The position numbers and the translations under genes were made by a program. Of a DNA stretch of 64,000 nucleotides, positions 4,313-56,660 are shown piece by piece (within the stretch, counting starts at the first letter, position 1; each line of letters opens with the position of its first letter). The notes under the pieces are model-generated. The model had not been told where the DNA came from. It worked only from the letters and a program-made list of their open reading frames with translations, and ran no database searches. Source of the DNA: Eledone cirrhosa (taxonomy: Eukaryota); the NCBI GenBank assembly GCA_964016885.1, contig OZ024742.1:334862001-334926000 (forward strand). Reading direction: 5' to 3'.

Positions 4313-4324
4313 TATATATATAAA

Positions 4325-4795
4325 AAGAAATACACAGATACATGCGAATACATACATATACATGCATATACACACATATATCCCTGAATTTGTGTGGTGC
4401 CAACCTTAACCGTTGTTGCTCTATGATTAATAGGGACAAAATAATATGAATAAATTAGATTGACTCAATATCAGAGCTATATAGTACATTATAAAGAAAG
4501 AAGAAACATTAGACATAAATAAAAATATATATATATACCCAATACTCTTCAACATCCTCGACTGCGCAGTTTCGTGGCTACTATGCAAAAACATTACATC
4601 ATAGAGATGCAGTATTTTTGTGAGGTTTGCCAACTTATCAAGAGAATACCTCATTAAAGTTTCAAAACACGTCCGCAAGGCGTGAGAGAGAATCCCGGTA
4701 AGGCGGAGGGAGAACTTAAGACGTGATACAGCGGTCAAAAAACAGAGTTAAGCCTCTTACAACCAAGAGAAAAATACCGACGTGTTTTGAAACTT
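4325..4795 (-). mobile_element. Diverged single copy of the 592-bp hammerhead-bearing family (see 53763-55836)
   Basis: Collinear similarity to the 592-bp unit (cacagatacatgcg ... ggtgccaac ... acttatcaagag ... aaggcggaggg ... taagcctctta). Confidence 0.8.
4555..4646 (-). ncRNA. Type I hammerhead ribozyme, U3-A8 variant core
   Basis: Minus strand ttctc-TTGATAA-gttggc...gccac-GAAAC-tgcgca-GTC-gagga; palindromic stem III ACTGCGCAGT. Confidence 0.8.
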
Positions 4796-4984
4796 TCTTT
4801 ATATATATATATATGTTTATATATAGGAAAAGAGTCAGGGCCCCGACGGCTGAGCTCCGGTCGTTTCGACAGCTAGATACTCTATATAAAGGATCGATCG
4901 ACTTTCGTCAAATCGGACCGAGGAAACAATGTTTTCGTCGGTCTTTCCAGTTGCTAATACTATCTATCGGTCGCAACTCCAGGC

Positions 4985-7045: not shown

Positions 7046-7477
7046 ACAGACAACTATATATGCAATAACAACGTCCTCTTCTGACTTGACAACAATTACA
7101 ACAATGAACTAGTAAAGAATAGCTACCGCCTCCCCCTTTCCAGACGCAGACAGCAACAAATACGAACGGAAAAATACAAACGCTACAAACATAAACAACA
7201 ACAATATCGTGAAACAGATGGCAAAGAGAACAAGTGCAATAATTACATCTACATCAACAACAACTGCAACAACAACAAGAATAATTGCAACAATATCTGC
7301 AACCGAAACTACAATAACAACGCCATCTTGAAAACCGTTATCACCACAACAACAGCTACAAACACACCAACTTCTATGTTCCATGACAAAATATTTACAA
7401 CAACATAAGCAATATCAACAAAAACAACAACAACAACAACAGCAGCAGCAGCAGTAAGACCGTTTTTGAACAAGAGA

Positions 7478-7662
7478 TAATTGTTTCTACTTTTGGCACA
7501 AGGCCAGCAATTACCCAGTGCATTACTGGTATTTTATTTATCAATCCCGTAAGGATGAAAGGCAAAGTTAACCTCGGCGGGATTTGAACTCAGATCATAC
7601 AGGGAGGTAACTCTATGCTTCAAAGCATGACGTCCGACCCACTACCGATACTGCCAATTCAC
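7478..7662 (-). mobile_element. tRNA-derived SINE
   Basis: Reverse complement of the 50384-50572 element including A and B boxes. Confidence 0.88.
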
Positions 7663-22820: not shown

Positions 22821-23518
22821 TACACACACAGAAATGTATATATATTTCTGTGTGTATATATATATATTTCTGTGTGTGTATATATATATATATTACACAC
22901 ACAGAAATGTATATATATTTCTTAGAACAAAATTATTATTAATGTTTTGCTGTTCATAACAATTGGAATTGAAAAAATACTTTTCAAATTATTAGTTATT
23001 TTACTAATGCTTAGATATGTAAAAATGAAGCAATGGTTCTAATAATTGTTTCTACTTTTGGCACAAGGCCAGCAATTACCCAGTACATTACTGGTACTTT
23101 ATTTTATCGACCCCGTGAGGATGAAAGGCAAAGTTAACCTCGGCAGTATTTGAACTCAGACCGTAAAGGGACGTAACTCCATGCTATGAAGCATGGTGTC
23201 GGACTCTCTACAGATTCTGCCAATTCACCGCCCTAATGTCTGTACGTAATGAGGGAGTGAGAGGGGAGAGAAAGAAAGGCAGAAGTGAAGTGACGAAGTG
23301 ACTCTCTCCTCCACCTCCTCCTCCATCTCCCCATTCGTCACAGCGATAGAGGGGAGGAATGTTAGTGTGTTACAAAGAGAAAGAGTGAGAGTGAGAGAAA
23401 CAGACAGACTAAAAGAGAGGGATAGCTGGAGAGAGAGAGAGATAGCAACCACGCGCGCACGTGTTTCCACTGTCGGACAGACAGACAGAGAAATTGGTGG
23501 TTATATATTATAAGGAGA
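22092..23518 (-). mobile_element. Helitron-like element, interrupted by (TA)n and a SINE
   Basis: Minus strand A|TCTCCTTATAATATATAA 5' end, (ctgt)n tracts, 3' end ...ttttctgCTAG|T preceded by a GC-rich subterminal segment; joining of the two ends is inferred. Confidence 0.55.
23044..23233 (-). mobile_element. Full-length tRNA-derived SINE
   Basis: Reverse complement of the 50384-50572 element. Confidence 0.9.
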
Positions 23519-23521
23519 TAA

Positions 23522-23972
23522 GGGATAACAAGTTATCGTTATAGGTAATCCAGTTAGAGGTTGTGAATACTCCGTATTGTGGATAGTTTTAGCGTACGGC
23601 GTTGTTTGACTCAACAAGAGTTTTTTTAGGTAGCGAGTATATGAGTTCTCGGGAGTTCCTATATAAGTTAATCTTGGAGTAATAATAGTGAAAGAGTGAA
23701 GAATAACATGGTCAACAGTACAAAAAGGGTTTTATTTACAGTATTAACAATTGTTTAATTGGTTAAGTTGTCTTAAAATTGCTAATCACTTGAAGTTGTG
23801 TCACTCAATTTTAAATACGATGTATGCTTAACCAAAACATCAGAAAAATTTTAAAAATTATACACAGCGTTTACAAATTCAAATTACATTATTAATAAAG
23901 AAGGAAAAAGAATCACTACTTTTATTTTTTCTCCCTATTTTTCTTTTCTTTATCTTTTTCTTTATTCTTTTT

Positions 23973-24032
<60 letters not shown>

Positions 24033-24323
24033 TCATTCTTTCTTTCTTTCTTTCTCTTTTTTTCTCTCTATTATTTTCTTTTTTCTTCTTTTTCTTTTTC
24101 CTTTATTAATGATGTCGTAATTTGAATTTGTAAACGTTGTGTATAATTTTATTTTTTCAGTTTTTCTGATGATTTGGTTAAGCATACATTGTATTTAAAA
24201 TTGAGTGACACAACTTCAAGTGATTAGCAATTTTAAGACAACTTAACCAATGAAACAATTGTTAATACTGTAAATAAAACCCTTTTTGTACTGTTGACCA
24301 TGTTATTCTCCACTCTTTCACTA
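23522..24323 (-). mobile_element. Hammerhead-bearing element with inverted arm (23686-23905 vs 24100-24323)
   Basis: Inverted repeat of about 220 bp around a (CTTT)n spacer; diverged homolog at 47724-48020. Confidence 0.75.
24158..24270 (+). ncRNA. Type I hammerhead ribozyme motif
   Basis: CTGATGA-t-ttggttaag...cttaaccaa-t-GAAAC-aatt-GTT; 9-bp stem II, palindromic stem III ACAATTGT, weak stem I. Confidence 0.65.
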
Positions 24324-24331
24324 TATATATA

Positions 24332-25475
<1,144 letters not shown>

Positions 25476-25489
25476 ATATATATATATAT

Positions 25490-26482
25490 ATAAACAAGGT
25501 TTAGTAAATAATGAAAAAGTTTCAAAATAAATTTTAAAAAATTGACTTTACCTACTATAGTTACCTTTACCGATCGGTTTCGAATCCCAAAAATAAAACG
25601 TAGGCCATACGGCCTTCGTTGCAAAGAGAGATTCTCGTCAGAAGGTTCTTTTCATTCAAAGAATATAAAATTCCTGAATTTAAATCACAAACTAGCGCTA
25701 TCAAAGACTGTTCCTGGGATGAGAGTGGATGATGTAGAACAGGTTTATCAAGGGCCGTAGTAAAGATAGAGGCAAAAGGAGGTAGGTCGAACTAGCCACC
25801 GCGATTCGAAACCGATCGGTAAAGGTAACTATAGTAGGTAAAGTCAATTTTTTAAAATTTATTTTGAAACTTTTTCATTATTTACTAAACCTTGTTTATA
25901 TTTGTTCTGGCTCGTTAATTTATTAACCCGCCATTGAACCACACTGGCACTTGGTTGGACAATACATGCGTACCTTGGCGCCTTGTGCGTGAAAGGACGT
26001 ATTTCATATTACTACTACCTCCACATACGTTGAGAACAAACCGGGTCATTCCGACTGCTGCTGATAACAGCGGTGGCTAGTTCGACCTACCTCCTTTTGC
26101 CTCTATCTTTACTACGGCCCTTGATAAACCTGTTCTACATCATCCACTCTCATCCCAGGAACAGTCTTTGATAGCGCTAGTTTGTGATTTAAATTCAGGA
26201 ATTTTATATTCTTTGAATGAAAAGAACCTTCTGACGAGAATCTCTCTTTGCAACGAAGGCCGTATGGCCTACGTTTTATTTTTGGGATTCGAAACCGATC
26301 GGTAAAGGTAACTATAGTAGGTAAAGTCAATTTTTTAAAATTTATTTTGAAACTTTTTCATTATTTACTAAACCTTGTTTATATTTGTTCTGGCTCGTTA
26401 ATTTATTAACCCGCCATTGAACCACACTGGCACTTGGTTGGACAATACATGCGTACCTTGGCGCCTTGTGCGTGAAAGGACG

Positions 26483-26490
<8 letters not shown>
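25490..26490 (+). mobile_element. Retrozyme-like element: 1.4 tandem copies of a 483-bp unit (25803-26490) preceded by an inverted segment (25490-25802)
   Basis: gattcgaaaccgatcggt at 25803 and 26286; identical 72-aa ORFs on opposite strands; (TA)n on both sides. Confidence 0.88.
26226..26309 (+). ncRNA. Type I hammerhead ribozyme, canonical core (mirror copy on minus strand at 25563-25646)
   Basis: acctt-CTGACGA-gaatc...gattc-GAAAC-cgatcg-GTA-aaggt; all three stems pair. Confidence 0.92.
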
Positions 26491-26554
<64 letters not shown>

Positions 26555-26645: not shown

Positions 26646-27130
26646 CAGGTACACATACATATATGTACGTATCAGTTTAGCGGACGCTTATTATAGCGCC
26701 CGCTTTGTTCGTTTGTAAACAAACTGAACAGCCTGAATTTATGCCGTACGGTGTTAAGGCAACCACGTCACCTTTTTGTTCAACACTGACACAGGAACGA
26801 TGTACTAGTTTCAAACTTGTTAGCTATCATCAGCACCGTATACCCTTCTGCCAGATGGTTGAACGTTCGAAAGTATATACTTTCCTTATGAAAATTAACG
26901 GCTGAGCAGCCTAATTTGCATATCGAGTGAGTTCGGCCAGGCGTACCGAGAACGACAAGTTGTAATAAAATGAAAACGAAATTTCATTTCTCACTCTTAG
27001 TACGGCACTTACTTAAATGTAAGTATGTATGTATACGTACATACATATATGTAAGTGCCGTACATACATATAAGTAAGTGCCGTACTAAGAGTGAGAAAT
27101 GAAATTTCGTTTTCATTTTATTACAACTTA
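26555..27130 (-). mobile_element. Retrozyme-like element: about 462-bp unit with terminal redundancy and inverted end (26958-27015 vs 27071-27129)
   Basis: atgtaagtatgtatgtatacgtacatacatatatgta at 26555 and 27017; inverted arm visible. Confidence 0.7.
26797..26839 (-). ncRNA. Compact type I hammerhead ribozyme
   Basis: Minus strand acggtg-CTGATGA-tagct(aaca)agttt-GAAAC-ta-GTA-catcgt; 6-bp stem I, palindromic ACTAGT stem III, weak stem II. Confidence 0.8.
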
Positions 27131-27141
27131 TATATATATAT

Positions 27142-28551
27142 TTGAATCATAGACAACCTATGTATTTCTGGGGGTACCTAGTATCCCTGGACATATTAAC
27201 TTCAATCTCTTTCTCCGTCCGTTGAGAACAATTCTGTTGCTCTATTTAGCTGCTATTTTTTTAGTAGTAATTGTAGACAGCAAGTCTTTGATTTTCCCGC
27301 TTTTACTTCGGTCCAGTTTACATACGGGTCACTTTTACGACCTTTCAGACCTTTATTTGCTGGCAGGAGGTTATATATTTTGTCGTTCCTGGGACGTTTA
27401 GCCCTAGGAAGAGAAAATGCTTCCTGATGAGCTTTGGTTTTCCATCATAAATCCATCGGATTTATGAGGTTTTACAAAGCGAAACTGATCAGTAAGGGCC
27501 ACTAGGAGAGGTAAATATTTATATTATATTTTTTAATGTATTTTTAGAAAATTGATTGAATTTTACTTGTTCTGCTTATCTTAATATTAAAGTTCTGGTG
27601 TATCAAATTAATACCATTGAACAACCTTGAATCATAGACAACCTATGTATTTCTGGGGGTACCTAGTATCCCTGGACATATTAACTTCAATCTCTTTCTC
27701 CGTCCGTTGAGAACAATTCTGTTGCTCTATTTAGCTGCTATTTTTTTAGTAGTAATTGTAGACAGCAAGTCTTTGATTTTCCCGCTTTTACTTCGGTCCA
27801 GTTTACATACGGGTCACTTTTACGACCTTTCAGACCTTTATTTGCTGGCAGGAGGTTATATATTTTGTCGTTCCTGGGACGTTTAGCCCTAGGAAGAGAA
27901 AATGCTTCCTGATGAGCTTTGGTTTTCCATCATAAATCCATCGGATTTATGAGGTTTTACAAAGCGAAACTGATCAGTAAGGGCCACTAGGAGAGGTAAA
28001 TATTTATATTATATTTTTTAATGTATTTTTAGAAAATTGATTGAATTTTACTTGTTCTGCTTATCTTAATATTAAAGTTCTGGTGTATCAAATTAATACC
28101 ATTGAACAACCTTGAATCATAGACAACCTATGTATTTCTGGGGGTACCTAGTATCCCTGGACATATTAACTTCAATCTCTTTCTCCGTCCGTTGAGAACA
28201 ATTCTGTTGCTCTATTTAGCTGCTATTTTTTTAGTAGTAATTGTAGACAGCAAGTCTTTGATTTTCCCGCTTTTACTTCGGTCCAGTTTACATACGGGTC
28301 ACTTTTACGACCTTTCAGACCTTTATTTGCTGGCAGGAGGTTATATATTTTGTCGTTCCTGGGACGTTTAGCCCTAGGAAGAGAAAATGCTTCTCTGATG
28401 AGCTTTGGTTTTCCATCATAAATCCATCGGATTTATGAGGTTTTACAAAGCGAAACTGATCAGTAAGGGCCACTAGGAGAGGTAAATATTTATATTATAT
28501 TTTTTAATGTATTTTTAGAAAATTGATTGAATTTTACTTGTTCTGCTTATC

Positions 28552-28558
<7 letters not shown>
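27142..28558 (+). mobile_element. Retrozyme-like tandem array: about 2.9 near-identical copies of a 485-bp unit
   Basis: ttgaatcatagacaacc at 27142, 27627 and 28112; TA tracts at both ends. Confidence 0.92.
27419..27499 (+). ncRNA. Type I hammerhead ribozyme (repeated at 27904-27984 and 28389-28470)
   Basis: CTGATGA-gctttg...caaagc-GAAAC-tgatca-GTA-agggc; internal 10-bp hairpin tcataaatcc/ggatttatga in loop II. Confidence 0.88.
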
Positions 28559-28604: not shown

Positions 28605-28815
28605 TATGGTGTGATAAAACCCAGCTAGACCATAACCCACCAGAGTCCTCGATTATTGGGGTAGTAGGGTCAGTAATATGAAAAAATTCAGCACCCCGAC
28701 GGCTGAGCCCCAGCCGTTTCGAAAGCTAGATCCGAACTCATTTACATGCTCACCAGTTCGGATCTAGCTGTCGAAACGGCTGGGGCTCACCCGTCATAGT
28801 CCTGGATCTTTTCAT
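28600..28815. mobile_element. GAAAC-hairpin-GTC family repeat with fold-back end
   Basis: gacggctgagccccagccgtttcgaaagctagatccgaact ... agttcggatctagctgtcgaaacggctggggctcacccgtc. Confidence 0.75.
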
Positions 28816-29332
28816 AAATATATATATTTGATTTCGATCCACTGAATAGGGTGACGTCACAAAACCCTGCAACTCAATGGCAGCCATTGATGTTGACCTG
28901 TCCTTCTTTTTGCATATGTGTTGCTCTTGTTCAGAAAGTTTCCAGTGCAAGGTCTTTTACGCATAAAAGCGTTATATGCACTGGCGTCATATGATTTAAA
29001 CATGTTTTACGTGTGTTGCTGAAATGGATGGTCGTATCCGAAAAAAGTTTTTTCTTTCGATGCTAAAAAATCGCGTTCGTACCACTATGTGTGAGAAAAG
29101 ACTTGAAAACCGAGTAAAATACATATATTTGTTATATTTACATGGCTATATATTTAAAAACTCTAAATGTATATACATTTATAGACACATGTATGCAGCC
29201 ATAGCTATTTCTTTTTCTTTACTGTATATACGGATTTAACTTTGCCAAATAATATATATATATATATATGCCTACATACTTACATACATACACACACACA
29301 CACAAACACACAAACAGACACACACACACACC

Positions 29333-30487: not shown

Positions 30488-33400
30488 CTACAGGCTTATA
30501 AACAGAGAAGGCCCAATCACTCGGGCCATTTTCGCTTCATTCACCCACCTTTCAGTAAATTTACTGGGGTGCAGTGCCTCTCTCTCCACCCTGATTCTCC
30601 TTCTAAAGTGATACTTAAAGAAGGGAATCAATTGTTGTCCGGAGAGAAAGGCATCTGTCCTCAGTCCTCTCAACCTCGTCCACCATATAACTTCTTTCAC
30701 CATAGCCACCGTACAGAGGAAAACCGCCTCTCTTTCGTTTTTGAAAGAGTCTGGCGGTTTGATCCTTACTATGAACTCGGCAGTCAACTGTATTTGTCCC
30801 ATACGCGACAGCAGTTGTTCTGCATAGTTCCACAGGTCGCTTACGCCCGGGCAGTGTACAATTGCGTGCAGAACTGTTTTAATGTCCTGCGCACATCTTG
30901 GACACGTCCTCTTGGAAGGATCCCTGCCAGGGCGTCCGTGCCTGTAGATCTTGTCACGAACCGGTAGAGCTCCTCAGTAGCACTGCCAGGCAAGGGACCT
31001 CTGGAAGTTGTCCATAGGTCCCGGGCGGAAAGTCCTACCAAACATACTGGTGAGCTCATCGTCTTCGACGCCCAGAGTCTCTCCGAGCACGTCGTCGCCC
31101 TTGTAACGTACAATCCCTCTATAGAATGTCGAAGTGGAGTCTCCACTGATTGCTGCGCCCGCTTGCCAGAGGACTGTGAGCGCCTGAGCGCATTCAATGT
31201 GCCAGGCGCCCATCGTTTTCGGTCTTTTCTTCACCCAGGACTGCAGCTCCGTTAGCGAGACGAGCTGTGGGAAAGCCTGTCTCACAAACGGTGCACACAC
31301 CGGTTGGGGGTCGGTGACGAATACCTGGAGATGCCGCAGCCTCAGCGCATGTTTGCGCATCATCAGCCACGGCATTCCCAGCCCTCCGTTGGAAGGGTGC
31401 TGACAGCAGACGGATCTCCTCACCAGCGGAGCCTGCTTCTTCCACAGAAACTGGAAGAGCATGCGTTCCATCTTGGCGAGGTGTTCACGGGGACAAGGCA
31501 CGACAGTCAAGCGGTAGTAGATGACGGACGCTATGAAAGTGTTCGCCACCTCCGCTCGACCTTTCAAGGACAGTTTGCACTCTGCCCATTTCTGAGTGAG
31601 TGCAAACACCTTGGCCGTGACCTCGTTCCAGTTTTTCTCCACCTGGAGGTCTGGACCGAACCAGACCCCGAGCAATTTCACCGGTCCGGCCGTCCAGCGT
31701 CCAACGACGCTGTCGGATGTCATCGGTTTGCCTCTCCACGTACCGAGTTGCAAACCGACAGACTTGTCTGGGTTTAGTTTTGCTCCCGTCAGCGTTTCGT
31801 ATTCTTTCAGTATGTTGCCGATCACCCCGATTTCCGAGGTGCTCGACACCATTACTGTCACGTCGTCGGCATAAGCCGACGCCGCTTTGCGCAGTCCCGG
31901 TTCTAGGGGGATGCCCTTCAACAGCTCCAATTTCCGCAGTAGTGGCTCTAGAGTCAATACATACAGAATGGAGGAGAGAGGGCATCTCTGTCGAATGGAA
32001 CGCGTGATTGCGAACGGCTCCGATAGGTAGCCGTTCACCTTGACCCTCGAGCAGATGCTGGTGTGCATCGCCTCGATCCATCCTCTGAACACGGGACCGA
32101 AACCGGCCGCCTTGAGAACCGCTTCCAAGTATCGATGGTCGACCCTATCGAATGCCTTAGACTGATCCAAGTTGATCAGAGCCCCACCGAAGCCGGGTTT
32201 ACTACCCACCCTCTCTATGATGTATCGCATGAGGTAGAGGTTGTCGTGTATGGACCGGGTCGGGATTGCACACGTTTGCGCTTTCCCTACCAGGTTCTCG
32301 ACGACAAGCGCCAACCTCGTCGCTAGCACCTTGGCCAAAATCTTTAACTCTGTGTTGAGCAGAGTTATGGGCCTGAAGTTGTTAATTTCGTCCCCCTTGT
32401 TCTCGTCTTTCCTGATCAGCGTTACTACGCCCTTGCCTGCAGAACTGGGAATTCTCCCGTTCTGCTGCCAATTGCAGTAGACGGCTTCGAGGACGCCAGA
32501 GAACAAGTCCGGCATGCCTATGTAAAATTCGTAGGGTAGACCATCTAGACCGGGTGACTTGCGTTTCCCGCAGCGGCCCAGAGCGTCCCGTATCTCAGTG
32601 TCCGTGATCGGTCTTTCGCAGAACTCGGCGTCCGTGTTCGAGAGACGCGGCAGGCCGTCGAGGTATGAACTAAAGTCCATTGCCCCGTTCGGCTCACCGT
32701 CGTTCTGCTCAAACAGTCGCGCAAAGTGCCGCTGAAAGGCCGCGCACATTTGCTTGGGGTCAAGTAGCACGCGTCCGTTTTGGTCTTTCAAAGACCGAAT
32801 CGTGGACTTGTTGCCACTTTTTGCCTCCGCCACTCGGGCCCAGCTGACAGCTTTCGCTCCTTCGTTTCCTAGAGCACGTGTTTTGCTTCTGACCACGCAG
32901 CCTTCGTGTTTCGCATCGAAGAACTGGTCCAGTGCCGTTCTCGACGCTAACACTCTAGCCGCGTTGCCACTTCTAAGTGCCTCCTCTACCTTGGCTACTA
33001 GTTCTCTTTCTATTCTGTTTTTCTCTAAGGCTAACTCTCTGCTATACCCTATCGATTCTATTCTAATTGCTTTCTTGAGAGAGTACCACCATCTATTGTT
33101 GACGATGGCTTCCGTTAACTGTTGCTTGACTAGTTTACTTATCCGTTCACTGTAAGCTTTACGTGCCGGCAACGACACGTTCAGCTTCCAGTATCCGGGA
33201 CCCTGTCTATGTATTCTATCACGGTTGACTAAGCAGACGACTAACTTGTGATCTGAATAGGCAACCATGTGCATTCGTGGACAGCTTAACATATCCTTGT
33301 CCCTTTCTCTAATGAAGAACCTATCTAAATACGATCTAGATGTCCCACTGCGGTTTACCCACGTCCACTGTGGTGCAGTCGGGAAATCCAGTCGATACCT

Positions 33401-33934
33401 ATCGGCCAGTTGGAATTGGCCGATTAAAGTTTTGAGGCTGTTGCACCCCGCTCTACTGGGACATGCTCCCACATAGTCCCATCGTGCATCTAGGATACCA
33501 TTCCAGTCCCCCACTAAAAGTAAGGAGCGAGACGTTCCCAGAAAAGACTCTAGATGCTTAAAGAAGTCTGGCCGTGATTGCGATTGCCCGGTCGGGGCAT
33601 AAACGGCCACCAGTCTGAAGGCTCCACCTCCGATACTGTTCACGTCTAGGACTACCAGTCTACCCTCCGGGTCCAAGTGTACTTGCTGTACTCCGACGTC
33701 CAGGTTCTTCCGAAACATAACAGCCACTCCACCTCCACCTCCTGGCTGACAGAGAGATGCGTAGATCTCAAAGTCGTCGAAGATGGGGGTTAGTTGCTGC
33801 CTGTTGTGGATTCTGGACTCGGTGATGGCTATCACATCCATACTGTGTGACCTAAGGTCGTTTAAAAGTTGGCCCTGTTTCCAGGGCATCCCTAGGCCAC
33901 GCACATTCACGGTTCCAACTCGTAAACCAGCCAT
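30488..33934 (-). pseudogene. Tx1 ORF2 (AP endonuclease, reverse transcriptase, C-terminal zinc finger); open for 986 aa (33934-30974), then a nonsense codon and frameshift
   Basis: NVRGL, GDWN, YLDRF, SDHK, GYWKLN, KSPGLDGLP, FRPITLLN, DQSKAFDRV, RQRCPLS, YADD; TGA where copy 2 has an Arg codon. Confidence 0.93.
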
Positions 33935-33975
33935 GTTGGTGAAGAAAAGTTGGAGAAAAAGGACGAAAGGTGCAC

Positions 33976-35851
33976 TTACCTTTTCGTTTGCTGGAGATCG
34001 GGTTGTTCAATCTCCATTTGGGTGCTGGATGGGGTGTTGGGTGGGGCGGGGAAACCTTTCAACAGGACGCGGTTGATGGGTTTGTGGCAGGGGTTGCCCA
34101 CGTCCTGTGAAAATTTAATTTTCAGGTCTTTATAGGTTTCCATAGAAACCCTTATAAGTTTAAGGTGTGGAGACGATTCTGCCTTGACGAAAGTTTTGCC
34201 CTCCGTCTCCACCTTGGGGTTTGGGGAGATGACCTCCATCAAACTCTTGTTGTTTGTGTTGATGTATGCGTATTGTTGTTTGTGTTTTTGTTGTATTGTT
34301 TTAGTTTGTTGTTCATCCGGGAGTTTTCTTTTTATGGTGGGTGCTTGTGTTTGGGGTGGTGTTGGTGCTGGTTTTGCTGATAGGGGATGTTTGACTGTGG
34401 TGTTGTTTGTGTTGTTGTTTGTGTGTGTGGTTGTGTGTTGGTGTTGGTGATTGGAGTTTTGGGGGTTTTGTGGTGTCTCTTTTTTTGTTTTTTGGATTTC
34501 CGCGGTTCTCCCTCTTCTTCACTTAAAGAAGGAGAAGCAGCTTCATCCGTCGATGAATAATCATCGTCAGGTGTGTGGGGTAAGGGTATGTTGTGTGGTG
34601 GTGGTGGTGTTTCGGTATGTGTGTTTGTGGTAGTGTTTGATGGAGTGGGATGGAGTGGGGATGCGTTCTTCAGGGGTGTTGTCTCTGTTTTTTCTGTTGT
34701 TGTTGGTTGAGTGTCTGTTTGTTTTGGTGTGGTTGCTCGTTTCGTCTGTCGTTGTACTTGTGGTGGTGGTGGTGGTTGTTTTGGTGTTGGTGTTGGTAAT
34801 AGCGTTTTTTTATGATGTTGCTGTTGTGTGTTTGTGGACAAGAGGCTTTTAGGTGAGATGTGCTACCACAGCGAAAGCAGTGAAATTTTCTTCCTTCTAC
34901 CGAAATGTTTATTTTGTTTTTATTATCAATAACGACTCTTTCGGGTATTTTGGAGATTCTCTCCGGTTTCATTTGCAACAGAATCTCCAAATCGGTGCCC
35001 GCCCACCTTTGTCGAATGGATTTTCGTATCGAAAGTATTATGTCTGTTTCTGGCTCTACGAAGCCAGCCAAGATCCACCAGATGTTAATGCTTGGAGGTA
35101 TGTTTTTTATTTTTATTTTTTGTGTCCTTTTCCCCATGTATGTAGGGAAAAAGGTGTATGCTTTTGACACTATTGGTGTCACAGAGTTTTTTTGGGCCAG
35201 TGCCTCGCTTTTAAACAGTACGGAAACACTTCTGTACTGTTTTCCTCGCTGGAGAAAATCGACATTTCCTAGAATCTCCTTGAAAGAATCTTCTATATCT
35301 GACTGATTAACAAATGTCGGTTTTCTTGACGAATTTGACACAGTCCTAAAAGTGACTGATCGGCGGTTTGTGTCTTCCTTTATTTCAAGGGGTGAGTTAA
35401 TTCTAAACCCACCTCTTTCTTCGAAAGTTACAAATTTTCTCCCTTGCTGGAGCATATCTCTTGCGTTGGAGATATCAAGATTTATAAAATCTTGTTTCTT
35501 GTTGACTGTGTCAGCGAAAGACATTTTCTTTTTTTGTGTGATGTTGTTGTTAATAATGATGTTATCGTTGTTGGAAATTTTATGTGTAGATGTATCTGTA
35601 GAGTTGTTGATGTCTTTTTCATGTGTATGTATATCAATGGGTTTTTTTGCCGTGTTTTCCCGTGTGTTATTGTCATTTTTCTCCGCTTCGGCGGTAGAAA
35701 TTGTAACATTTTCAAATGTTGATATATTTTTTTCTTTTGTGACAGTATCTATGGCAACGTCCATAGCAGCAGAAGCAGATATAACGTTAATATCTGCCTC
35801 TTTCTCTCTCTTTTCTCTATTAACGTTCTCCAGCGTTCTAGTGTTGCTCAA
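33976..35851 (-). pseudogene. Tx1 ORF1 (nucleic-acid-binding protein with CCHC knuckle), frameshifted
   Basis: CFRCGSTSHLKASC in ORF 35851-34670; continues in 34841-34332 and 34242-33976, the latter homologous to copy 2 ORF 40044-39499. Confidence 0.85.
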
Positions 35852-36067
35852 GTTTTTTTACTTTGTAAAATTTGATATTTTAAAACAAACTTTTAAATAA
35901 AATTTTCGCCCCTACAGGGGCGAAAAATGGGATTACCACCCAGCTGACAATTCAGCTTGGGGGTTAATCTACAAAGTGTTGTATTTTTTTCAAACAATTA
36001 GATCGGTTTTTTGCATAGAAATTAACAAAAAACTTACCGGCGATATTCCACACGTTAGACAGAAAGA

Positions 36068-36068
36068 G

Positions 36069-36152
<84 letters not shown>
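36068..36152. repeat. (GATA)n tract between Tx1 copies (also 30213-30253, 40397-40466, 40910-40975, 57393-57416)
   Basis: Direct observation. Confidence 0.95.
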
Positions 36153-36153
<1 letters not shown>

Positions 36154-36155
36154 TG

Positions 36156-39100
36156 TTTCTTTATTAGCCACAGGGGCACAAAAGAAGGGGACAAATACAA
36201 AAGGGGAAGTTTACATACAATAAAAACGTGTAAAATATTATCACAAATACAATTTAAAAATTAGTCGATTTTCCCCAATAAGGGGAGACATTACATATGG
36301 GTAACACATACCCCCGAAAAAAATGTGCAACCCTCATCTCCAGGAGTACAAAGAGTTTGTACTCCTTTCCTCTCCTCCTCTTTTTCCTCAACCTACAGGC
36401 TGATATAGAGAAAAGGCCCATTCACTCGGGCCATTCTCGCCACTTTCACCCACCTTTCATAAAACTTGATGGGGTACAGCACCTCTCTCTCCATCCTGAT
36501 TCTTCTTCCAATGTGGTATTTGAAAAAAAGAATCAGTTGTTGGCCGGAGAGAAAGGTGTCTGATCTCAGCCCTTTCAACCTTGTCCACCATACAACCTCT
36601 TTCGCCATAACTATTACACAAAGGAAAACCGCCTCTCCTTCGTTTTTGAAGAAGGGTGGCGGTTTGATCATGACAATGGACTCGGTGGTCAACCGGATTG
36701 GTCCAACCCGCGACAATAGTCGTTCTACATAGCCCCACAGGTCGGCGACGCCCGGGCAGTGTATGAATGCGTGCGCGACGGTTTCTTCGTCTTGCATACA
36801 CCTCGGACAGATCTTTTTTGCAGGGTCCCTGCCCGGGCGCCCATGTCTGTAGAGCTTGTCTCGAACTGGTGGACCTCCTCGGTGGCACTGCCAGGCCAGA
36901 GACTTTTGGAAGTTGTCCACCGGTCCCGGGCGGAAGGTCCTACCGAACAGACTGGCCAGTTCGCCTTCCTCTACGCCTAGAGTTTCACCGAGCGTGTCGT
37001 TGCACTTGCTGCGGACCAACCCTCTATAGAATGTCGAAGTGGAGTCTCCACTGATCGCCGGTCCGTTTGCCAGAGGACTGTGATCGCCTGAGCACATTCA
37101 ATGTGCCAGTCACCCATTTTCCTCGGTCTTTGCTTGACCCAGGACTGCAGCTCGGTCAGTGACACGAGTCGTGGGAAGGTTCGCCTCACGAACGGGGCCC
37201 ACACCGGTTGTCCGGTGAGGAATACGTAGAGATGCCGCAGCCTGAGCGCGTGTTTGCGCATCGTCAGCCACGGCAACCCCAGCCCTCCGTTGGAAGGGTG
37301 TTGGCAGCAGATGGATCTTCTCACCAAAGGAGCCCGCCTCTTCCAAAGGAATTGGAAGAGCACGCGCCCCATTTTGCCGAGCGTTTTGGCTGGACAAGGC
37401 ACTACGGTCAAACGGTAGTAGATGGCGGACGCTATAAAAGTGTTCTCCACATCCGCTCGACCTTTCAAGGATAGTTTGCACTCGGCCCACTTCTGGGTGA
37501 GTGCAAACACCTTGGCCGACACCTCGTTCCAGTTTTTCTCCACCTGGAGGTCCGGACTAAACCAGACCCCAAGTAGCTTTACCGGTCCTTTCGTCCAGCG
37601 TCCGACGACGCCATCGAAAGGCATCGGTCTGCCTCTCCACGATTGCAAACTGATGGACTTGTCCCGGTTCAGCTTCGGCCCTGTGAACCTTTCGTATTCC
37701 TTCAGTAAGGTGCTGACTTACGCGATTTGCGAGGCGCTCGACACCATTACTGTCACGTCGTCGGCGTAGGCCAACGCCGCTTTCCGCAATGCCGGTTCCA
37801 GAGGGATGCCCTGCAATAGCTCCAACTTCCGCAGTAGTGGCTCGAGAGTCAGTACGTACAGAAGGGAGGAGAGAGGGCATCCCTGTGGATCGCGTGATAT
37901 GGAACGGCTCCGCGAGGTTGCCGTTCACCTTGACCCTTGAGCAGATGTTGCTGTTGTGCATGCAGCAATCCAGCCCCTGAACACGGGTCCGAAGCCTGCC
38001 GCCTCGAGCACCGCATCCAGGTAACGATGGTCAACCCTAGCGAAAGCCTTAGACTGATCCAAGTTGATCAGTGCCCCACCGAAGCCGGATTTACACCCTA
38101 TCCTCTCTATGATGATATCACATGAGGCGGAGGTTGTCGTGTATGGACCTGGTCGGGATTGCGCATGTCTGCGCTTCTCCCACCAGGTTCTCGACGACAA
38201 GCGCCAGCCTCTTTGCCAACACCTTGGCCAAAATCTGTAACTCTGTGTTTAGCAGAGTTATGGGCCGGAAGTTTCCTATGTCATCGCCCTTGATCTCGTC
38301 CTTCCTGATTACGCCCTTGGTCACAGAACTGGGAATTCTTCCATTCTGCTCTCAGTTGCAGTAGACCGCCTCCAGGAGACCGGAGAATAAGTCCGGCATT
38401 GCTACGTAAAATTCGTAGGGTAGACCGTCGAGACCTGGAGATTTGCGTTTGCCGCATTGGCCCAACGCGTCCCCTATCTCAGCGGCTGTGATCGGCGTTT
38501 CACAGAACTTTGCCTCGCCGTCCGAGAGTCGCGGTAGGCCGTCGAGGTATGAACCGAAATCCATAGCCCCTCCCGGCGCGCCGCCCTGCGCGAACAGTTG
38601 AGCAATGTGCCGCTGAAAGGCCGCACACATCTGCTTCGGCTCACGTATCACGCGTCCGTTTTGATCCATCAAAGACCGAATCGTGGACTTGTTGCCACTT
38701 CTTGCCTCCATCACTCGGGCCCAGCAAACAGCTTTGGTTCCCTCGTTTCCCAGAGCCCGTATTTTGCTTCTGACAACGCAACCTTCATGCTTTGCGTCGA
38801 AGAACTGGTCCAAGGCCGTTCTCGTTGCTAGCACGCTGGCTACGTTGCCACTTCTAATTGCATCTTCTACTTTATCTACCAGTTCCTTCTCGGTTCTATT
38901 TCTATCTAATGCTAATTCTTTACTAAAAACTAACGAGTCTAATCTAACTGCCCTCTTGAGAGAGTACCACCATCTGTCATTGACAATGGCCCCTGTGAAG
39001 TACCGTTTAACTAAAGTGCTAATCCGTCTACTGTAGGCTTTGCATGTCGGTAACGACAAATTCAGCTTCCTGTAGCCGTGTCCTTCTCTATGGGTTCTAT

Positions 39101-40243
39101 CCAGGTTGACCATGCAGGTCACTAGTTTGTGATCTGAATAGGCAACCATGAACATTTGTGGACAGCTTAACATGTCCCTATCCTTATTTCTAACTAGAAC
39201 CCTATCAGCAAAACGGCAACCTCGCCCCCACCCCCCGGCCGACAGAGAGATGCGTAGATCTCAAAGTCATCAAAGATGGGGGCAGCTGTCGCTCGCTGTC
39301 GATCCTGGACTCGCAAATGGCTACTACATCCATACTGTGCAACCTGAGGTCGTTTAAGAGTTTGCCCTGTTTCCAGGGCATCCCCAGGCCGCGAACATTC
39401 ACACATCCAACTCTTATATTTGCCACGTTGGTTCTGAAAAGTTAAAAGAGAAGAAAACACTCACCTCTTCGTCTCCCGGGGATCAGGCCGCGCGGTTTTC
39501 AAGGGGGTGTTAGAGGGGCTGTCTGGGTGGGAGGTGGTTTCCGGCGAGGTCGGAACGGAGATGTTTGGTGGGGTGGGGGTGTCTGGGGTGGGGGTGTCTG
39601 GGGTGAGGGTGGAGAAACATTTAAAAGGGCGCGGTTAATGGGTTTAACACAATGATTACCCACGTCCTTAGGAAAGTTTTCCTTTAAAGACTTATAGGTG
39701 TCCGTAGGGACCCTAATCATCTTTAAATTAGGTTTGTCTACACAGTTCGAAAAGGTTTTCCCTTCGGTTTTCACCGAAGGGTCGTTGGAGATGACCTCCA
39801 TTAAAGTTTTGTTTTTACTGTTTATGTATGTGTAATGTTCTTGTGTTGCGGTGGTTTTTGTCTGTTCTTGTGGGAGCTTTCGTTTTGTTGTAGGTGTTTG
39901 TGTTTGGAGTGATGTCGTGGTTTTGTTTTCGGGACGGGGGGTTTTTGTTTGTAATGTTTGTGTTGTTTGTGTTGGTGGTTGTATGTTTGTAGTGATGTTT
40001 GTTGTTTTTTTGTTCTTGTAGTGTCTTTTCTTCTTTCTTTTCAAACGGAGAGGCTCTCCCTCATCGTCACTTGGTGATGATGTGGGGGCCTCGTCCGTTG
40101 TGGCGTCTGTGTTATTTGGAAGGGGTATGTTTTGGGGAGCTGTTGTGTTTGTGGGTGTTTTTGCAGTGGTTTTAGGTGGAGTGGGACTGGGTGGGACTGT
40201 GCTTGCAGGTTGGTTTGTTGTTCTTATTTTGGTTGTGTTTGCG

Positions 40244-47646: not shown

Positions 47647-47723
<77 letters not shown>

Positions 47724-47725
<2 letters not shown>

Positions 47726-48020
47726 GATAACAAGTTATCGTTATAGATAATCCACCTAGAAGTTGTGAGTACTCTGCCTCGTGAATAGTTTTAACGTACG
47801 GCTTTGTTTGACTCAACAAGATGTTTCCATAGTTAGACAGCGACTTCGTGGGAATTCCTATGTAAGTTATACTGGGAGTAATAATAGTGAATGAATGAAG
47901 AGTAACATGGTTGGCTGTACAACAAGTGGCTTTATTTCAGTTATTAACAATTGTTTCATTGATCAGGTGAGTCTAGAGGCCGCTAATCGCTCGAAGTTGC
48001 GTCACTCGATCTCCATTACA
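47724..48020 (-). mobile_element. Truncated diverged homolog of the 23522-24323 element
   Basis: Starts with the same gggataacaagttatcgttatag; retains minus-strand atGAAACaattGTTaata but is cut before the CTGATGA half. Confidence 0.75.
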
Positions 48021-48184
48021 TTATTTACCTCTGACCAAATCCTCAGAATATGAGTTCAAATCCCGCCGAGGTTTACATTGCCTTTCATCCTTAAGAGGTC
48101 GATAAAATAAAGTACCAGTAATGTACTGGGTAATTTCTGGCCATGTGCCAAAAGTAGAAACAATTATTTCACTATATATATATA

Positions 48185-48342: not shown

Positions 48343-48399
48343 CACATATACATATATACATACATACATATATATATATTTATATATATATATATATTC

Positions 48400-48585
48400 A
48401 ATTCAGGACCCCGATGGGTGAGCTCCGGCTGTTTCAATAGCTAGATCCGAACAGTTAGGATCTAACTGTTGAAACGGCCGGAGCTCAACCGTCAGGTTAC
48501 TGAATTGTTCATATTATCCACTCTACTATCCCAAGCATCGCGTATTCTGGTGAGTAATGGTCTAACTAGTAATCACCGCCTCCAT

Positions 48586-48592
<7 letters not shown>
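48400..48592. mobile_element. GAAAC-hairpin-GTC family repeat with fold-back
   Basis: gtttcaatagctagatcc..ggatctaactgttgaaacggccggagctcaaccgtc...cctccattctgat. Confidence 0.7.
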
Positions 48593-48620
<28 letters not shown>

Positions 48621-48621
<1 letters not shown>

Positions 48622-49515
48622 GAGGTGTGTCAGAAAGCTCCAGGACTGATGTCACAAAAGATTTATTTCAAACCCAAACTTCACACTAAGAATTTTCTCC
48701 TTCAAAGTAATTCCCCTGGAGTCTAATGCACTTTTACATCCTTTTCTGCCACGCTTGCATGCACTCCTGGAAGGATTTTTCCGGGATCCTCCGCAGTTCC
48801 GTCGTCACGGGCTTTTTGATACGTCCACGTCTTCAAAACGGGTCCCCTCCGGGTCGTACTCGAAGATACATGACTCATTACCGATGATGACTGTCCCTAG
48901 CAAGTCTGGATCGGTTTCAAGACGCTCGAGGATGTCCTGGGACACTTGCATGCGTCGACCCTTCTAGTCATCGTTCAGCAGTTTTGGCACCATCTTCGCG
49001 CAGACTTTCCGCATGTCCAAATCTTCAGTGAGAATCTTCCAGACGCTGTGCCGATTCATGCCCAGCTCATTTGCCATCAGTCGAACAGTCAGCCGACGAT
49101 CGCTACGCACCATCTGCCTGACGCGCTCAACGTTGACCTCAGTCCTGGTTGTTGAGAGCCTTCCGCTCCTGGGGTCATTTTCCACGTCCTCGCGTCCTTC
49201 TTTAAACCGTTTGTACCACTCAAAAACACGTGAGACATCGTCTCATCTCCACACAGTTGCTGCAGCAATCCCAGTGCTTGCTTCTGACGGAGTTTTCCCC
49301 AACCGTACCAGAAACTGTGCTCATTGCTTGACGACCTGAACCAGAAGTCATGTATATAAAATTATGAAGAAAAAAGTTTGATCGCTGCAGAGAGCTAAGA
49401 TTACAGTTACATACTCCAGGGGAATTACTTTGAAGGAGAAAACTCGTTGTGTGAAGTTTGGGTTTGAAATAAATCTTTTGTGACATCAGTCCTGGAACTT
49501 TTCTGACACACCTCG
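48621..49515 (-). mobile_element. Internally deleted mariner (Tc1/mariner) DNA transposon
   Basis: Terminal inverted repeats of about 100 bp starting cgaggtgtgtcagaaa, TA flanks; remnant PRSGRLST...DRRLTVRLMANELG...RKVCAKMVPKLL (mariner HTH and WVP-like motif). Confidence 0.93.
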
Positions 49516-49524
49516 TATATACAG

Positions 49525-49690
<166 letters not shown>

Positions 49691-50082
49691 AGTTAATATA
49701 TATTAATATATGATAAACACATACGTGTTTGTATTGCAAGAGACAAAGTTAGCTAGAATGAAATAAACTATTTCATTCTAGCTAACTTTGTCTCTTGCAA
49801 TACAAACACGTATGTGTTTATCATATATTAATATATATTAACTTGTATTTCACTGCTCGGAAATGCTTCTTTCTTTGAGCTGATTAATTGTAAATGACTT
49901 TGAGTTTAAACTCTAAATATAATATAATATTATTGCTCCTTAACTGTAGAGCTAATTTTTAATCCCATATAAACGGCTGTTATTTCTATCACTGTGAGTA
50001 TGGGATGGCTAGTATAGATGGTTATACCACGTGTGAATCAGTCCTACAAAATTTTTGGAGGTGAAATGTACTAATTTTACTG

Positions 50083-53288: not shown

Positions 53289-53675
53289 CAGAGAGAGAGA
53301 AAGAGAGACAGGCAGACAGAGAGATAGAGAGAGAGTAACATAGAAGGAGAAAGGGGTATAGTGAGAGAGAAGGGGGAGAAACATTGTCATACATTGCACT
53401 GTAAAATAAAAATGAAAATATTTTTATATTTAATATTTTATCTGGAGATATGTGTGTTGAGAAGACGGGAATTAAGTTGCACTTAATTCAAAGTGTTTTC
53501 TATTGAATAAAGGTCGATAGAAACTAGGTTAAACTACAGATTTCCAATCGATATTGACATTATATACGCTCACATGCTGCAGGAAGGTTGCCTATGTATA
53601 TGTGTACACATACCTATGTACAGTATATACATACACATACACACACTGAGCGAAAGCGAGAGGAACGTTAGTATG

Positions 53676-53759
<84 letters not shown>

Positions 53760-53762
53760 GTT

Positions 53763-55836
53763 ATATATTTAGAAACACACAGATACATGCGGACACACAC
53801 ATATATACATGAATGCATCCACACCCAACTGTGAGTTAAGGGTGCCAACTTCACCGATGTTGCTCAATGAATGACTGGGACAGACCAATTCAGTTTGAAC
53901 CAGACTGAACCAGTATCAGAGTTAAAAATACATTATGAAGAGAGAAGAAACATTTAGATATAATTAGTAATAAAATGTATCATACCTAAACTGTTCCTAA
54001 ATTCCTCGACTACGTAGTTTCGTGGCATAAACAAAAACAATATATCAAAGATATAGAGTCCTTGCGAGGTCTGCCGACTTATCAAGAGGATACCTCATTT
54101 TACTAGTCCCAAGAACGCGTCTACACGGCGTGAGAAAGAATCCCAAAAGGCGGAGGGGGAGATAGTCACGCGATATAACGGTCGAGAAACAGAGCTAAGC
54201 CTCTTATAACCACGAAGAAAATACCACGGAGGCGGAGGGGGGTATTCATATCGAGGCCGTAGAAGAGGTAGTGAAGAAGGCGAGAAGTATGAGTAATGGA
54301 AGCTTTCCAGTTGTCCCCACACCTCAAAGATTGCTCGACCAGAGGGAGTTATTAATATATTTAGAAACACACAGATACATGCGGACACACACATATATAC
54401 ATGAATGCATCCACACCCAACTGTGAGTTAAGGGTGCCAACTTCACCGATGTTGCTCAATGAATGACTGGGACAGACCAATTCAGTTTGAACCAGACTGA
54501 ACCAGTATCAGAGTTAAAAATACATTATGAAGAGAGAAGAAACATTTAGATATAATTAGTAATAAAATGTATCATACCTAAACTGTTCCTAAATTCCTCG
54601 ACTACGTAGTTTCGTGGCATAAACAAAAACAATATATCAAAGATATAGAGTCCTTGCGAGGTCTGCCGACTTATCAAGAGGATACGCTCATTTTACTAGT
54701 CCCAAGAACGCGTCTACATGACGTGAGAAAGAATCCCAAAAGGCGGAGGGGGAGATAGTCACGCGATATAACGGTCGAGAAACAGAGCTAAGCCTCTTAT
54801 AACCACGAAGAAAATACCACGGAGGCGGAGGGGGGTATTCATATCGAGGCCGTAGAAGAGGTAGTGAAGAAGGCGAGAAGTATGAGTAATGGAAGCTTTC
54901 CAGTTGTCCCCACACCTCAAAGATTGCTCGACCAGAGGGAGTTATTAATATATTTAGAAACACACAGATACATGCGGACACACACATATATACATGAATG
55001 CATCCACACCCAACTGTGAGTTAAGGGTGCCAACTTCACCGATGTTGCTCAATGAATGACTGGGACAGACCAATTCAGTTTGAACCAGACTGAACCAGTA
55101 TCAGAGTTAAAAATACATTATGAAGAGAGAAGAAACATTTAGATATAATTAGTAATAAAATGTATCATACCTAAACTGTTCCTAAATTCCTCGACTACAT
55201 TTTATTACTAATTATATCTAAATGTTTCTCTCTCTTCATAATGTATTTTTAACTCTGATACTGGTTCAGTCTGGTTCAAACTGAATTGGTCTGTCCCAGT
55301 CATTCATTGAGCAACATCGGTGAAGTTGGCACCCTTAACTCACAGTTGGGTGTGGATGCATTCATGTATATATGTGTGTGTCCGCATGTATCTGTGTGTT
55401 TCTAAATATATTAATAACTCCCTCTGGTCGAGCAATCTTTGAGGTGTGGGGACAACTGGAAAGCTTCCATTACTCATACTTCTCGCCTTCTTCACTACCT
55501 CTTCTACGGCCTCGATATGAATACCCCCTCCGCCTCCGTGGTATTTTCTTCGTGGTTATAAGAGGCTTAGCTCTGTTTCTCGACCGTTATATCGCGTGAC
55601 TATCTCCCCCTCCGCCTTTTGGGATTCTTTCTCACGTCGTGTAGACGCGTTCTTGGGACTAGTAAAATGAGGTATCCTCTTGATAAGTCGGCAGACCTCG
55701 CAAGGACTCTATATCTTTGATATATTGTTTTTGTTTATGCCACGAAACTACGTAGTCGAGGAATTTAGGAACAGTTTAGGTATGATACATTTTATTACTA
55801 ATTATATCTAAATGTTTCTTCTCTCTTCATAATGTA
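53763..55836 (-). mobile_element. Retrozyme-like element: about 2.4 tandem copies of a 592-bp unit (53763-55198) plus an inverted copy of about 1.1 units (55197-55836)
   Basis: agaaacacacagatacatgcgg at 53771, 54363 and 54956; reverse complement follows; (TA)n on both flanks. Confidence 0.92.
55675..55762 (+). ncRNA. Type I hammerhead ribozyme, U3-A8 variant core (minus-strand copies at 54003-54090 and 54595-54682)
   Basis: tcctc-TTGATAA-gtcggca...tgccac-GAAAC-tacgta-GTC-gagga; palindromic ACTACGTAGT stem III. Confidence 0.88.
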
Positions 55837-55861
55837 TATATATAGTTATATGTATATATAC

Positions 55862-55939
<78 letters not shown>

Positions 55940-55952
55940 ATATAGTTATATC

Positions 55953-56013
<61 letters not shown>

Positions 56014-56019
56014 ATATAG

Positions 56020-56089
<70 letters not shown>

Positions 56090-56153
56090 TTATATTTATA
56101 TATGCATATATACGTATATATATAGTTATATGTATATATACATATATATATAG

Positions 56154-56188
<35 letters not shown>

Positions 56189-56247
56189 CATATATATATA
56201 GTTATATGTATATATACATATATATAGATATATATATATATATATAG

Positions 56248-56484
<237 letters not shown>

Positions 56485-56660
56485 CATATTGACATATATA
56501 AATACGTATATAAATATATATTAACAGAAATAAATACATTACATACACACATGTATAGATATAGTGATACGAACATACAAAGAGACACACACTAACCTGT
56601 ACTACAAACAAGTGTATATAGACACTCCAGACACACACTTGACAAATACATGTATATATG

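What the first reader, a model, noticed from the sequence alone, without database searches (positions are those of the whole stretch)
53763..55836. 592-bp variant-core element: 2.4 tandem units plus a full inverted unit, with the junction in stem III
Seen: three complete UUGAUAA hammerheads. The tandem ends at 55198 within the stem III palindrome, 6 nt from the predicted cleavage site, switching strand through a tac microhomology. The inverted arm is itself longer than one unit. Inference: a circular or multimeric template, with RT switching at the ribozyme or ligation junction, as also seen at 25803.
Basis: partly seen in the sequence, partly recalled or inferred. Interest (0 to 1): 0.8.

Follow-up and report, generated by a model that had tools for sequence, protein, structure and literature searches.

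The report
Retrozyme inserted head-to-head, Penelope-style
A young 2.1-kb insertion made of a repeated 592-base non-coding unit with a predicted self-cutting ribozyme sits head-to-head in a TA microsatellite of an animal genome; its two outer ends fall on two fixed family-wide sites, so it was likely copied in from both sides of the cut by a Penelope-type retrotransposon, whereas switching at the ribozyme is not the rule.

Summary
There are 2.42 tandem 592-bp units (53763-55198) and a 642-bp inverted arm (55196-55837), joined through 'tac', with three complete type I U3-A8 hammerhead motifs. A 10-17-bp target duplication flanks the whole. This is a non-LTR retrozyme-type element in the known tandem-plus-inverted layout of Penelope-like elements (PLEs).

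New here: contigs of related runs show (TA)n joined at two fixed 3' ends, +80 and +245 from the cleavage site. This insertion uses one site on each arm, which points to priming from both target strands.

Only 1 of 14 other arm starts lies within 10 nt of the cleavage site (P 0.38), and summed depth shows no step there. That one start does hit the same palindrome centre.

The hammerhead has a 57-nt stem/loop II, a likely pseudoknot and an 8-nt palindromic stem III, shared with two unrelated families in the window, and Rfam misses it. Expression, cleavage and circles are untested. New variant of a known kind.

The parts
53672..53768 (.). Left (TA)n microsatellite flank
53750..53766 (+). Left copy of target-site duplication (17 bp at most, 10 bp without the bases shared with the element ends)
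   Evidence: the GTTA-bearing motif occurs once in the left 370 bp, at the junction
53763..55198 (-). Tandem arm, 2.42 units; 3' end at +245 and 5' end at -6 (-3 to -6) relative to the cleavage site
54003..54097 (-). Type I hammerhead (U3-A8 core at 54085, cleavage predicted after 54008), with putative pseudoknot strand
54595..54690 (-). Type I hammerhead (core 54677, cleavage predicted after 54600); a private 1-nt insertion breaks the pseudoknot strand
55188..55198 (-). Fourth, truncated hammerhead: only half of stem III, GUC and the stem I 3' strand
55196..55198 (.). 3-nt overlap (tac) at the head-to-head junction
55196..55837 (+). Inverted arm, 642 bp; 5' end at +29, 3' end at +80
55668..55762 (+). 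Type I hammerhead (core 55680, cleavage predicted after 55757)
55758..55826 (+). Predicted long hairpin +1..+69 that sequesters the stem I 3' strand and ends about 10 nt before the +80 end
55835..55851 (+). Right copy of target-site duplication
   Evidence: the motif recurs 7 times in the right microsatellite
55835..56521 (.). Right compound (TA)n microsatellite flank

Best explanation
This is a young insertion of a high-copy, non-coding 592-nt hammerhead-bearing repeat (a non-LTR retrozyme type) that was likely mobilised in trans by a Penelope-like RT/GIY-YIG protein, which would nick both strands of a (TA)n tract and prime reverse transcription from both target ends at two fixed internal sites of the RNA. 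Steps: (1, inferred) staggered cut of 10-17 nt in the microsatellite, seen as the duplication. (2, ends shown, priming inferred) one end starts cDNA at +245 and the other at +80 from the cleavage site, each helped by 3-6 nt of AU/TA pairing. (3, inferred) RT runs around a more-than-unit template, most likely a ligated circle, reading through the cleavage junction twice on one arm (and 3-6 nt into a third) and once on the other. (4, inferred) the two cDNAs stop at variable places, here -6 and +29, anneal through TAC/GTA and are filled in, giving the head-to-head layout. The ribozyme likely makes unit-length RNA, probably as a dimer through the palindromic stem III, but it does not dictate where the arms join.
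For: Fixed 3' ends: (TA)n loose ends at +80 in 3, 11 and 7 contigs of X1, X2, X4 (one sample), and at +245 in 2, 4, 5 and 1 contigs of X1, X2, X4, X6 and at +246 in X10. They include the most-supported loose ends shown; 85 and 140 rows were not shown. Summed depth jumps at both sites and decays towards 5'. The +80 end has only 3 nt of TA homology, while longer TA runs at +46, +201 and +555 are not among the ends shown, so homology alone does not choose the site. The diverged copy A2 ends near +242, and unrelated families end at +80/+188 (B) and +93 (C). The Anolis PLE starts RT internally 85-92 nt past its hammerhead cut (my subtraction from PMC11167929), cuts and extends both strands, and is predicted to be a dimer. 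Target duplication. An inverted 5'-truncated copy and (TA)n bias are PLE hallmarks (PMC8557442, PMC3846280). The unit is closed: one 621-nt contig = unit plus 30-nt overlap in X3, and depth is continuous round the unit. Hammerhead: 32 of 32 proposed pairs hold in both A1 and A2, with 7 changed pairs (two sequences only). Circular fold z -6.3 against 40 shuffles.
Against: No autonomous partner found: no genome is held, the one long ORF of the window that I scanned is an APE-RT LINE, and I ran no dedicated search for PLE proteins. In copy A2 the inverted arm is only 18 nt and ends at -97, not at a fixed site, and X4 shows a perfect fold-back at +20/+22; both fit snap-back synthesis better. The two start sites are 165 nt apart, not the 30-40 nt of PLE tails. 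In the full context stem I is predicted to form with probability 0.03 (0.55 if cut at +8), so cleavage may be weak. Only 1 of 9 Xenopus retrozyme dimers cleaved in vitro, and PAc uses uncleaved RNA. The shuffle control for covariation is uninformative with two sequences (244 of 500). Contig depth is not a copy number.
Confidence: 0.65

Rival explanations
1. Same element and partner, but the inverted arm arises by snap-back: one cDNA folds back on itself through TAC/GTA (28-nt loop) and copies itself, or self-primes on an antisense template as proposed for rotifer Penelope elements.
For: The junction geometry allows it. A perfect fold-back at +20/+22 in X4. The short A2 arm. Self-priming is argued in PMC3846280.
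Against: A self-copy has no reason to stop exactly at +80, the family's commonest end. Family B also ends at +80 on its inverted arm. Private variants do not link the inverted arm to the adjacent unit: the one shared base is the family-majority base.
Confidence: 0.2
2. One reading: RT switches strand specifically at the ribozyme or ligation junction of a circular or multimeric RNA.
For: Arm starts at -6 (this locus), -7 (X1), -18 (family B) and +20/+22 (X4).
Against: 1 of 14 independent starts within 10 nt, P 0.38; P 0.13 for one hit in -8..-3. Short arms primed at +80 would crowd this zone anyway. No depth step at the site. Families A2 and C start at -219 and -353.
Confidence: 0.12
3. The template is an uncleaved linear multimer transcribed from a tandem source locus, or cleaved monomers joined by RT end-to-end jumps; no circle is involved. 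This changes step 3 only.
For: Stem I is predicted to be sequestered. PAc inserts from unprocessed RNA and no reads ended at its cut site. DNA alone cannot tell a circle from a multimer.
Against: The hammerhead is kept intact across 27% divergence. Coral, mussel and axolotl retrozymes make abundant circles (PMC7229834).
Confidence: 0.35
4. The unit is just the truncated end of an autonomous PLE, repeated by DNA-level events, or the inversion is an assembly fold-back.
For: An earlier scan note reached this reading for another genome (e1-7908855). One X6 contig leaves the unit at +22 into at least 255 unrelated bases. No contig shown spans this junction.
Against: The unit is closed in the runs. 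A direct target duplication flanks both arms, and the flanks are not mirror images. Other head-to-head junctions with different coordinates exist in the runs.
Confidence: 0.08

Closest known systems
Animal non-LTR retrozymes (Cervera and de la Pena 2020, PMC7229834; Li, Clavereau and Pollet, bioRxiv 10.64898/2026.07.22.740005)
   Same: Non-coding tandem units each with a type I hammerhead, GC under 50%, target duplication over 4 bp, strongly self-paired predicted circle, rolling-circle RT model, PLE proposed as partner.
   Different: Unit 592 nt (170-400 in the 2020 paper, up to 972 in the preprint); non-canonical hammerhead; head-to-head insertion and two fixed 3' ends, which I did not see described for retrozymes in the passages read ('inverted' has 0 hits in the 2020 paper).
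Endonuclease-positive Penelope-like element insertions (Craig 2021 PMC8557442; Arkhipova 2013 PMC3846280; Frangieh 2024 PMC11167929)
   Same: Partial tandem plus inverted 5'-truncated copy, variable 5' ends, (TA)n target, two RT start sites, first start about 80-90 nt past the hammerhead cut.
   Different: No RT or GIY-YIG ORF; the spacing of the two ends is 165 nt rather than a 30-40-nt tail; the whole unit is repeated.
PLE hammerhead variants with U3-A8 core and palindromic helix III (Cervera and de la Pena 2014, PMC4209133); pseudoknotted hammerheads (Perreault 2011, PMC3088659)
   Same: U3-A8 covariation is known (about 1,300 hits in Schistosoma); palindromic helix III is read as a dimer signal; pairs of motifs on opposite strands 100-700 bp apart were noted; pseudoknots between stems I and II occur in all three types.
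   Different: Loop II here holds a pseudoknot strand plus an extra hairpin (stem/loop II 50-61 nt) and helix III is an 8-nt perfect palindrome; Rfam finds no hammerhead even at E 10.

Membership tests
Non-LTR retrozyme | Tandem units, each with a complete type I hammerhead | tested here: met
   two consecutive complete motifs in the tandem arm, one in the inverted arm
Non-LTR retrozyme | No protein coding | tested here: met
   Longest ATG ORF 99 aa, no Pfam hit, and a 1-nt deletion inside it is common in the family and present in the inverted arm
Non-LTR retrozyme | GC under 50% and target duplication over 4 bp | tested here: met
   GC 0.38 for 54001-56000; 10-17-bp duplication, with the caveat that the motif recurs in the right microsatellite
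Non-LTR retrozyme | Canonical hammerhead with loop 1-loop 2 contacts | tested here: not met
   U3-A8 core, 57-nt stem/loop II, no Rfam match. Mussel retrozymes also lack most of these contacts, so this is not strictly defining.
Non-LTR retrozyme | Highly self-paired predicted circle | tested here: met
   -170.4 kcal/mol, 62% paired, z -6.3 against 40 shuffles; branched, not rod-like
Non-LTR retrozyme | Self-cleavage and expression as linear and circular monomers | not testable with these tools
   No RNA holder listed; only contigs and Hi-C reads could be laid
Penelope-like element (autonomous) | ORF with PLE RT and GIY-YIG endonuclease | tested here: not met
   no such ORF in the insertion
PLE-type insertion | Partial tandem with inverted 5'-truncated copy at the 5' end | tested here: met
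   definition
PLE-type insertion | Two internal RT start sites giving a one-sided tail of 30-40 bp | tested here: inconclusive
   Two fixed ends are present but are 165 nt apart
Non-autonomous PLE derivative | Homology to the pLTR of an autonomous PLE in the same genome | not testable with these tools
   No genome held
Helitron/Helentron (features recalled, no call) | No target duplication; no ribozyme | tested here: not met
   Duplication and hammerheads present

The most novel reading that the evidence does not exclude
The 8-nt palindromic stem III is a dimerisation signal, like a retroviral DIS, that pairs two circular 592-nt RNAs and hands them to a dimeric Penelope RT. Both target strands are then primed at once at +80 and +245, RT tends to stall at the palindrome centre, and this is the general origin of the unexplained head-to-head PLE insertions. 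Support: different perfect palindromes in all four hammerheads examined, predicted dimer duplex -12.9 to -16.9 kcal/mol against +1.5 to -0.9 for the hairpin, and 2 of 8 family junctions at -6/-7.
Probability: 0.12. Interest if true: 0.75.

Novelty: new variant of a known kind. Interest (0 to 1): 0.42.

Why it matters
Which enzyme moves animal retrozymes, and how PLE inverted ends arise, are stated open questions. A short, young, very abundant non-coding family with PLE-type ends gives insertion-signature evidence for the PLE partner, beyond co-occurrence and phylogeny. It also offers many natural events on which two-ended priming can be counted against snap-back. The long-loop hammerhead architecture, shared by three unrelated families in 64 kb and missed by Rfam, suggests that current descriptors undercount such elements.

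Tried and rejected
Rfam: no match at gathering score in the window; at E 10 only hairpin and low-complexity noise, no hammerhead. No whole genome held. Pattern scans: 4 metagenome matches were all chance 20-23-mers without the rest of the unit; 0 in viral and 0 in prokaryote contigs. Sequencing runs: no RNA holder listed, which is no evidence on expression. Two Hi-C runs of another organism code gave 0 and 3 reads, no test. I considered the 621-nt cyclic contig in X3, and the many organism codes that hold the unit, as signs of a free or infectious circular RNA, and dropped this: X10 branches into (TA)n and foreign flanks like trace genomic DNA, and a tandem repeat also collapses to a cycle. 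The 99-aa ORF is rejected as coding. L1-style twin priming on one RNA is rejected because neither arm starts where the other ends (-6 vs +80, +29 vs +245). My first hammerhead scan missed the three motifs through a non-greedy pattern (fixed). One search used a mis-registered structure and is void (redone). Pseudoknot chance test: shuffle fractions 0.006 (A1), 0.008 (A2), 0.196 (B), 0.063 (C), context fractions 0.02-0.13; windows were chosen after seeing the sequences, so this is suggestive only. Lunse 2016 (PMC5785218) is not held. Earlier scan notes: none by sequence, by place or by the first word set.

Full report
Setting. The window is microsatellite-rich animal DNA with LINE fragments. I suspect a cephalopod from recall only; this was not tested, and no whole genome is held. 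Positions below are relative to the predicted cleavage site on the ribozyme strand (+1 = first base after GUC).

Observation. Self-comparison gives a tandem of 1436 bp (53763-55198, 2.42 units of 592/593 bp) and an inverted arm of 642 bp (55196-55837); each arm differs from the reference unit at 3 positions. An exhaustive scan finds three complete type I hammerheads with core UUGAUAA, cleaving after 54600 and 54008 (minus) and 55757 (plus); none of 200 shuffles gave three. The ribozyme strand points outwards on both arms, so the layout is head-to-head with both 3' ends in (TA)n. The tandem arm spans -6 to +245 and the inverted arm +29 to +80, overlapping by tac. A 17-bp string at 53750-53766 recurs at 55835-55851; 7 of its bases are shared with the element ends, so the duplication is 10-17 bp. 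Its distinctive motif occurs once on the left, at the junction, but 7 times on the right.

The ribozyme. Stem I has 5 bp. Stem II encloses a loop with a strand complementary to the bases just 5' of stem I, followed by an extra hairpin. Stem III is an 8-nt perfect palindrome. A copy 73% identical at 4318-4778 keeps all 32 proposed pairs, 7 of them changed, and its palindrome differs but stays perfect; with two sequences the shuffle control says nothing (244 of 500). Two unrelated families in the window (B, 25488-26492; C, 27142-28558) share the architecture with CUGANGA cores. The pseudoknot is suggestive only (shuffle fractions 0.006-0.196, windows chosen post hoc). In two of three family C units stem I has a mismatch at its base, and stem I is not predicted for C at all. 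Predicted dimer duplexes are -12.9 to -16.9 kcal/mol against +1.5 to -0.9 for the hairpin. A long hairpin at +1..+69 competes with stem I (probability 0.55 falling to 0.03 in A1). Rfam finds no hammerhead. Cleavage is untested.

Family-wide ends. Twenty of 24 listed runs hold part of the unit, none on record as RNA; I laid 8 of the 24. In X1, X2 and X4 (one sample) summed depth is about 1e5 to 6e5, against 6-24 for single joints, which suggests thousands of copies, though the tool warns that this is no copy number. (TA)n loose ends recur at +80 (3, 11, 7 contigs) and +245 (2, 4, 5 contigs; 1 in X6; +246 in X10) (85 and 140 rows not shown). Depth rises at these two sites and decays towards 5', with no step at the cleavage site (3.6-4.7e5 in the three bins around it). 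These are the two ends of this insertion. A2 ends near +242, B at +80 and +188, C at +93. The +80 end has only 3 nt of TA homology, while longer TA runs in the unit are not among the ends shown.

X1 gave five head-to-head joints, with arm starts (+98, -7), (+86, -95), (-163, +256), (-251, +179) and (+225, -254). X4 gave a perfect fold-back (+20, +22), and A2 has (-219, about -114; entered as -112 in the script, no effect on the counts). Leaving out the discovery locus, 1 of 14 starts lies within 10 nt of the cleavage site and 3 of 14 within 30 nt (P 0.38, 0.16). The X1 joints have only 21-28 nt on the short side. The -7 start is at the same palindrome centre as here (chance about 0.13 under a uniform null, more with 5' truncation from +80). 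The ribozyme is therefore at most a weak hotspot.

Mechanism. Shown: layout, motifs, duplication, fixed 3' ends, variable 5' ends. Inferred: a PLE protein acting in trans cuts (TA)n, primes from both target ends at +245 and +80, reads a more-than-unit template, and the two cDNA ends anneal through 3 nt. The Anolis PLE cuts and extends both strands, starts RT internally at two sites about 85-92 nt past its hammerhead cut, and does not need cleavage. Snap-back is the main rival: it fits A2's 18-nt arm and the X4 fold-back, but not an arm that ends exactly at +80. Circle versus uncleaved multimer cannot be told from DNA.

Comparison with known systems. It meets the sequence criteria of a non-LTR retrozyme and has the insertion layout of PLEs; it is not an autonomous PLE. 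The U3-A8 core, palindromic helix III, opposite-strand motif pairs and the circular-template idea are in PMC4209133. The inverted 5' copy and (TA)n bias are in PMC8557442 and PMC3846280. The PLE origin of retrozymes is argued in the 2026 preprint. I found no report of such a family in cephalopods, nor of two-ended priming for PLE inversions, in searches; the library lacks most subscription papers, including Lunse 2016.

What I read. Preprint 10.64898/2026.07.22.740005: parts 1-3 of 5 (supplements closed; its family tables may bear on novelty). PMC11167929 and PMC4209133: parts 1-2 of 4. PMC8557442, PMC7229834, PMC3846280, PMC3088659 and PMC6765202: passages only. No supplements were read.

Verdict. 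A real, young insertion and a new variant of a known kind. Its value is the fixed-end evidence tying a retrozyme to PLE-type priming, and an unusual hammerhead architecture, not the junction position. Interest 0.42.

Noticed in passing
window 4318-4796: Older copy of the same family (73% identical) with an 18-nt inverted piece, lying between 86-bp inverted repeats (4253-4338, 4796-4881) of another element.
   Followed up: partly
window 25488-26492: Unrelated 484-bp hammerhead family (CUGACGA), head-to-head, ends at +80 and +188, arms 100% identical.
   Followed up: partly
window 27142-28558: Unrelated 485-bp hammerhead family (CUGAUGA), 2.9 direct units, end at +93; two of three units lack one base next to the core.
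   Followed up: partly
window 23502-24324 and 47703-48048: Another head-to-head repeat with CUGAUGA, a loop of about 80 nt and a palindromic stem III-like motif (24166 plus; decayed copies 23756 and 47956 minus).
   Followed up: partly
window 24432-24857: 426-bp near-perfect palindrome with minimal-hammerhead-like motifs on both arms, like a PLE end. Further palindromes at 26957-27129, 28677-28816, 48399-48507 and 49686-49848.
   Followed up: no
window 53986 (run X6): One contig leaves the unit at +22 into at least 255 unrelated bases; the 30 letters shown hold an ATG with 8 open codons. A weak lead to an autonomous partner.
   Followed up: no
window 30974-34006, 36054-39206: Two related LINE copies (80% identical); the first has a 1010-codon APE-RT frame and an upstream frame with a CCHC-type knuckle (34670-35857, read).
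   Followed up: no
window 7477-7662, 15138, 17434, 23042, 41317, 46792, 48048, 50389: Dispersed repeat of 100-190 bp, SINE-like.
   Followed up: no
window 48590-49549: Segment with inverted ends of about 135 bp, mariner-like by recall only.
   Followed up: no
runs listed: The unit's words occur in runs of 17 organism codes (3 of them only as a small share), probably as trace DNA of a very high-copy repeat; only X3 and X10 of the other codes were laid as contigs.
   Followed up: partly
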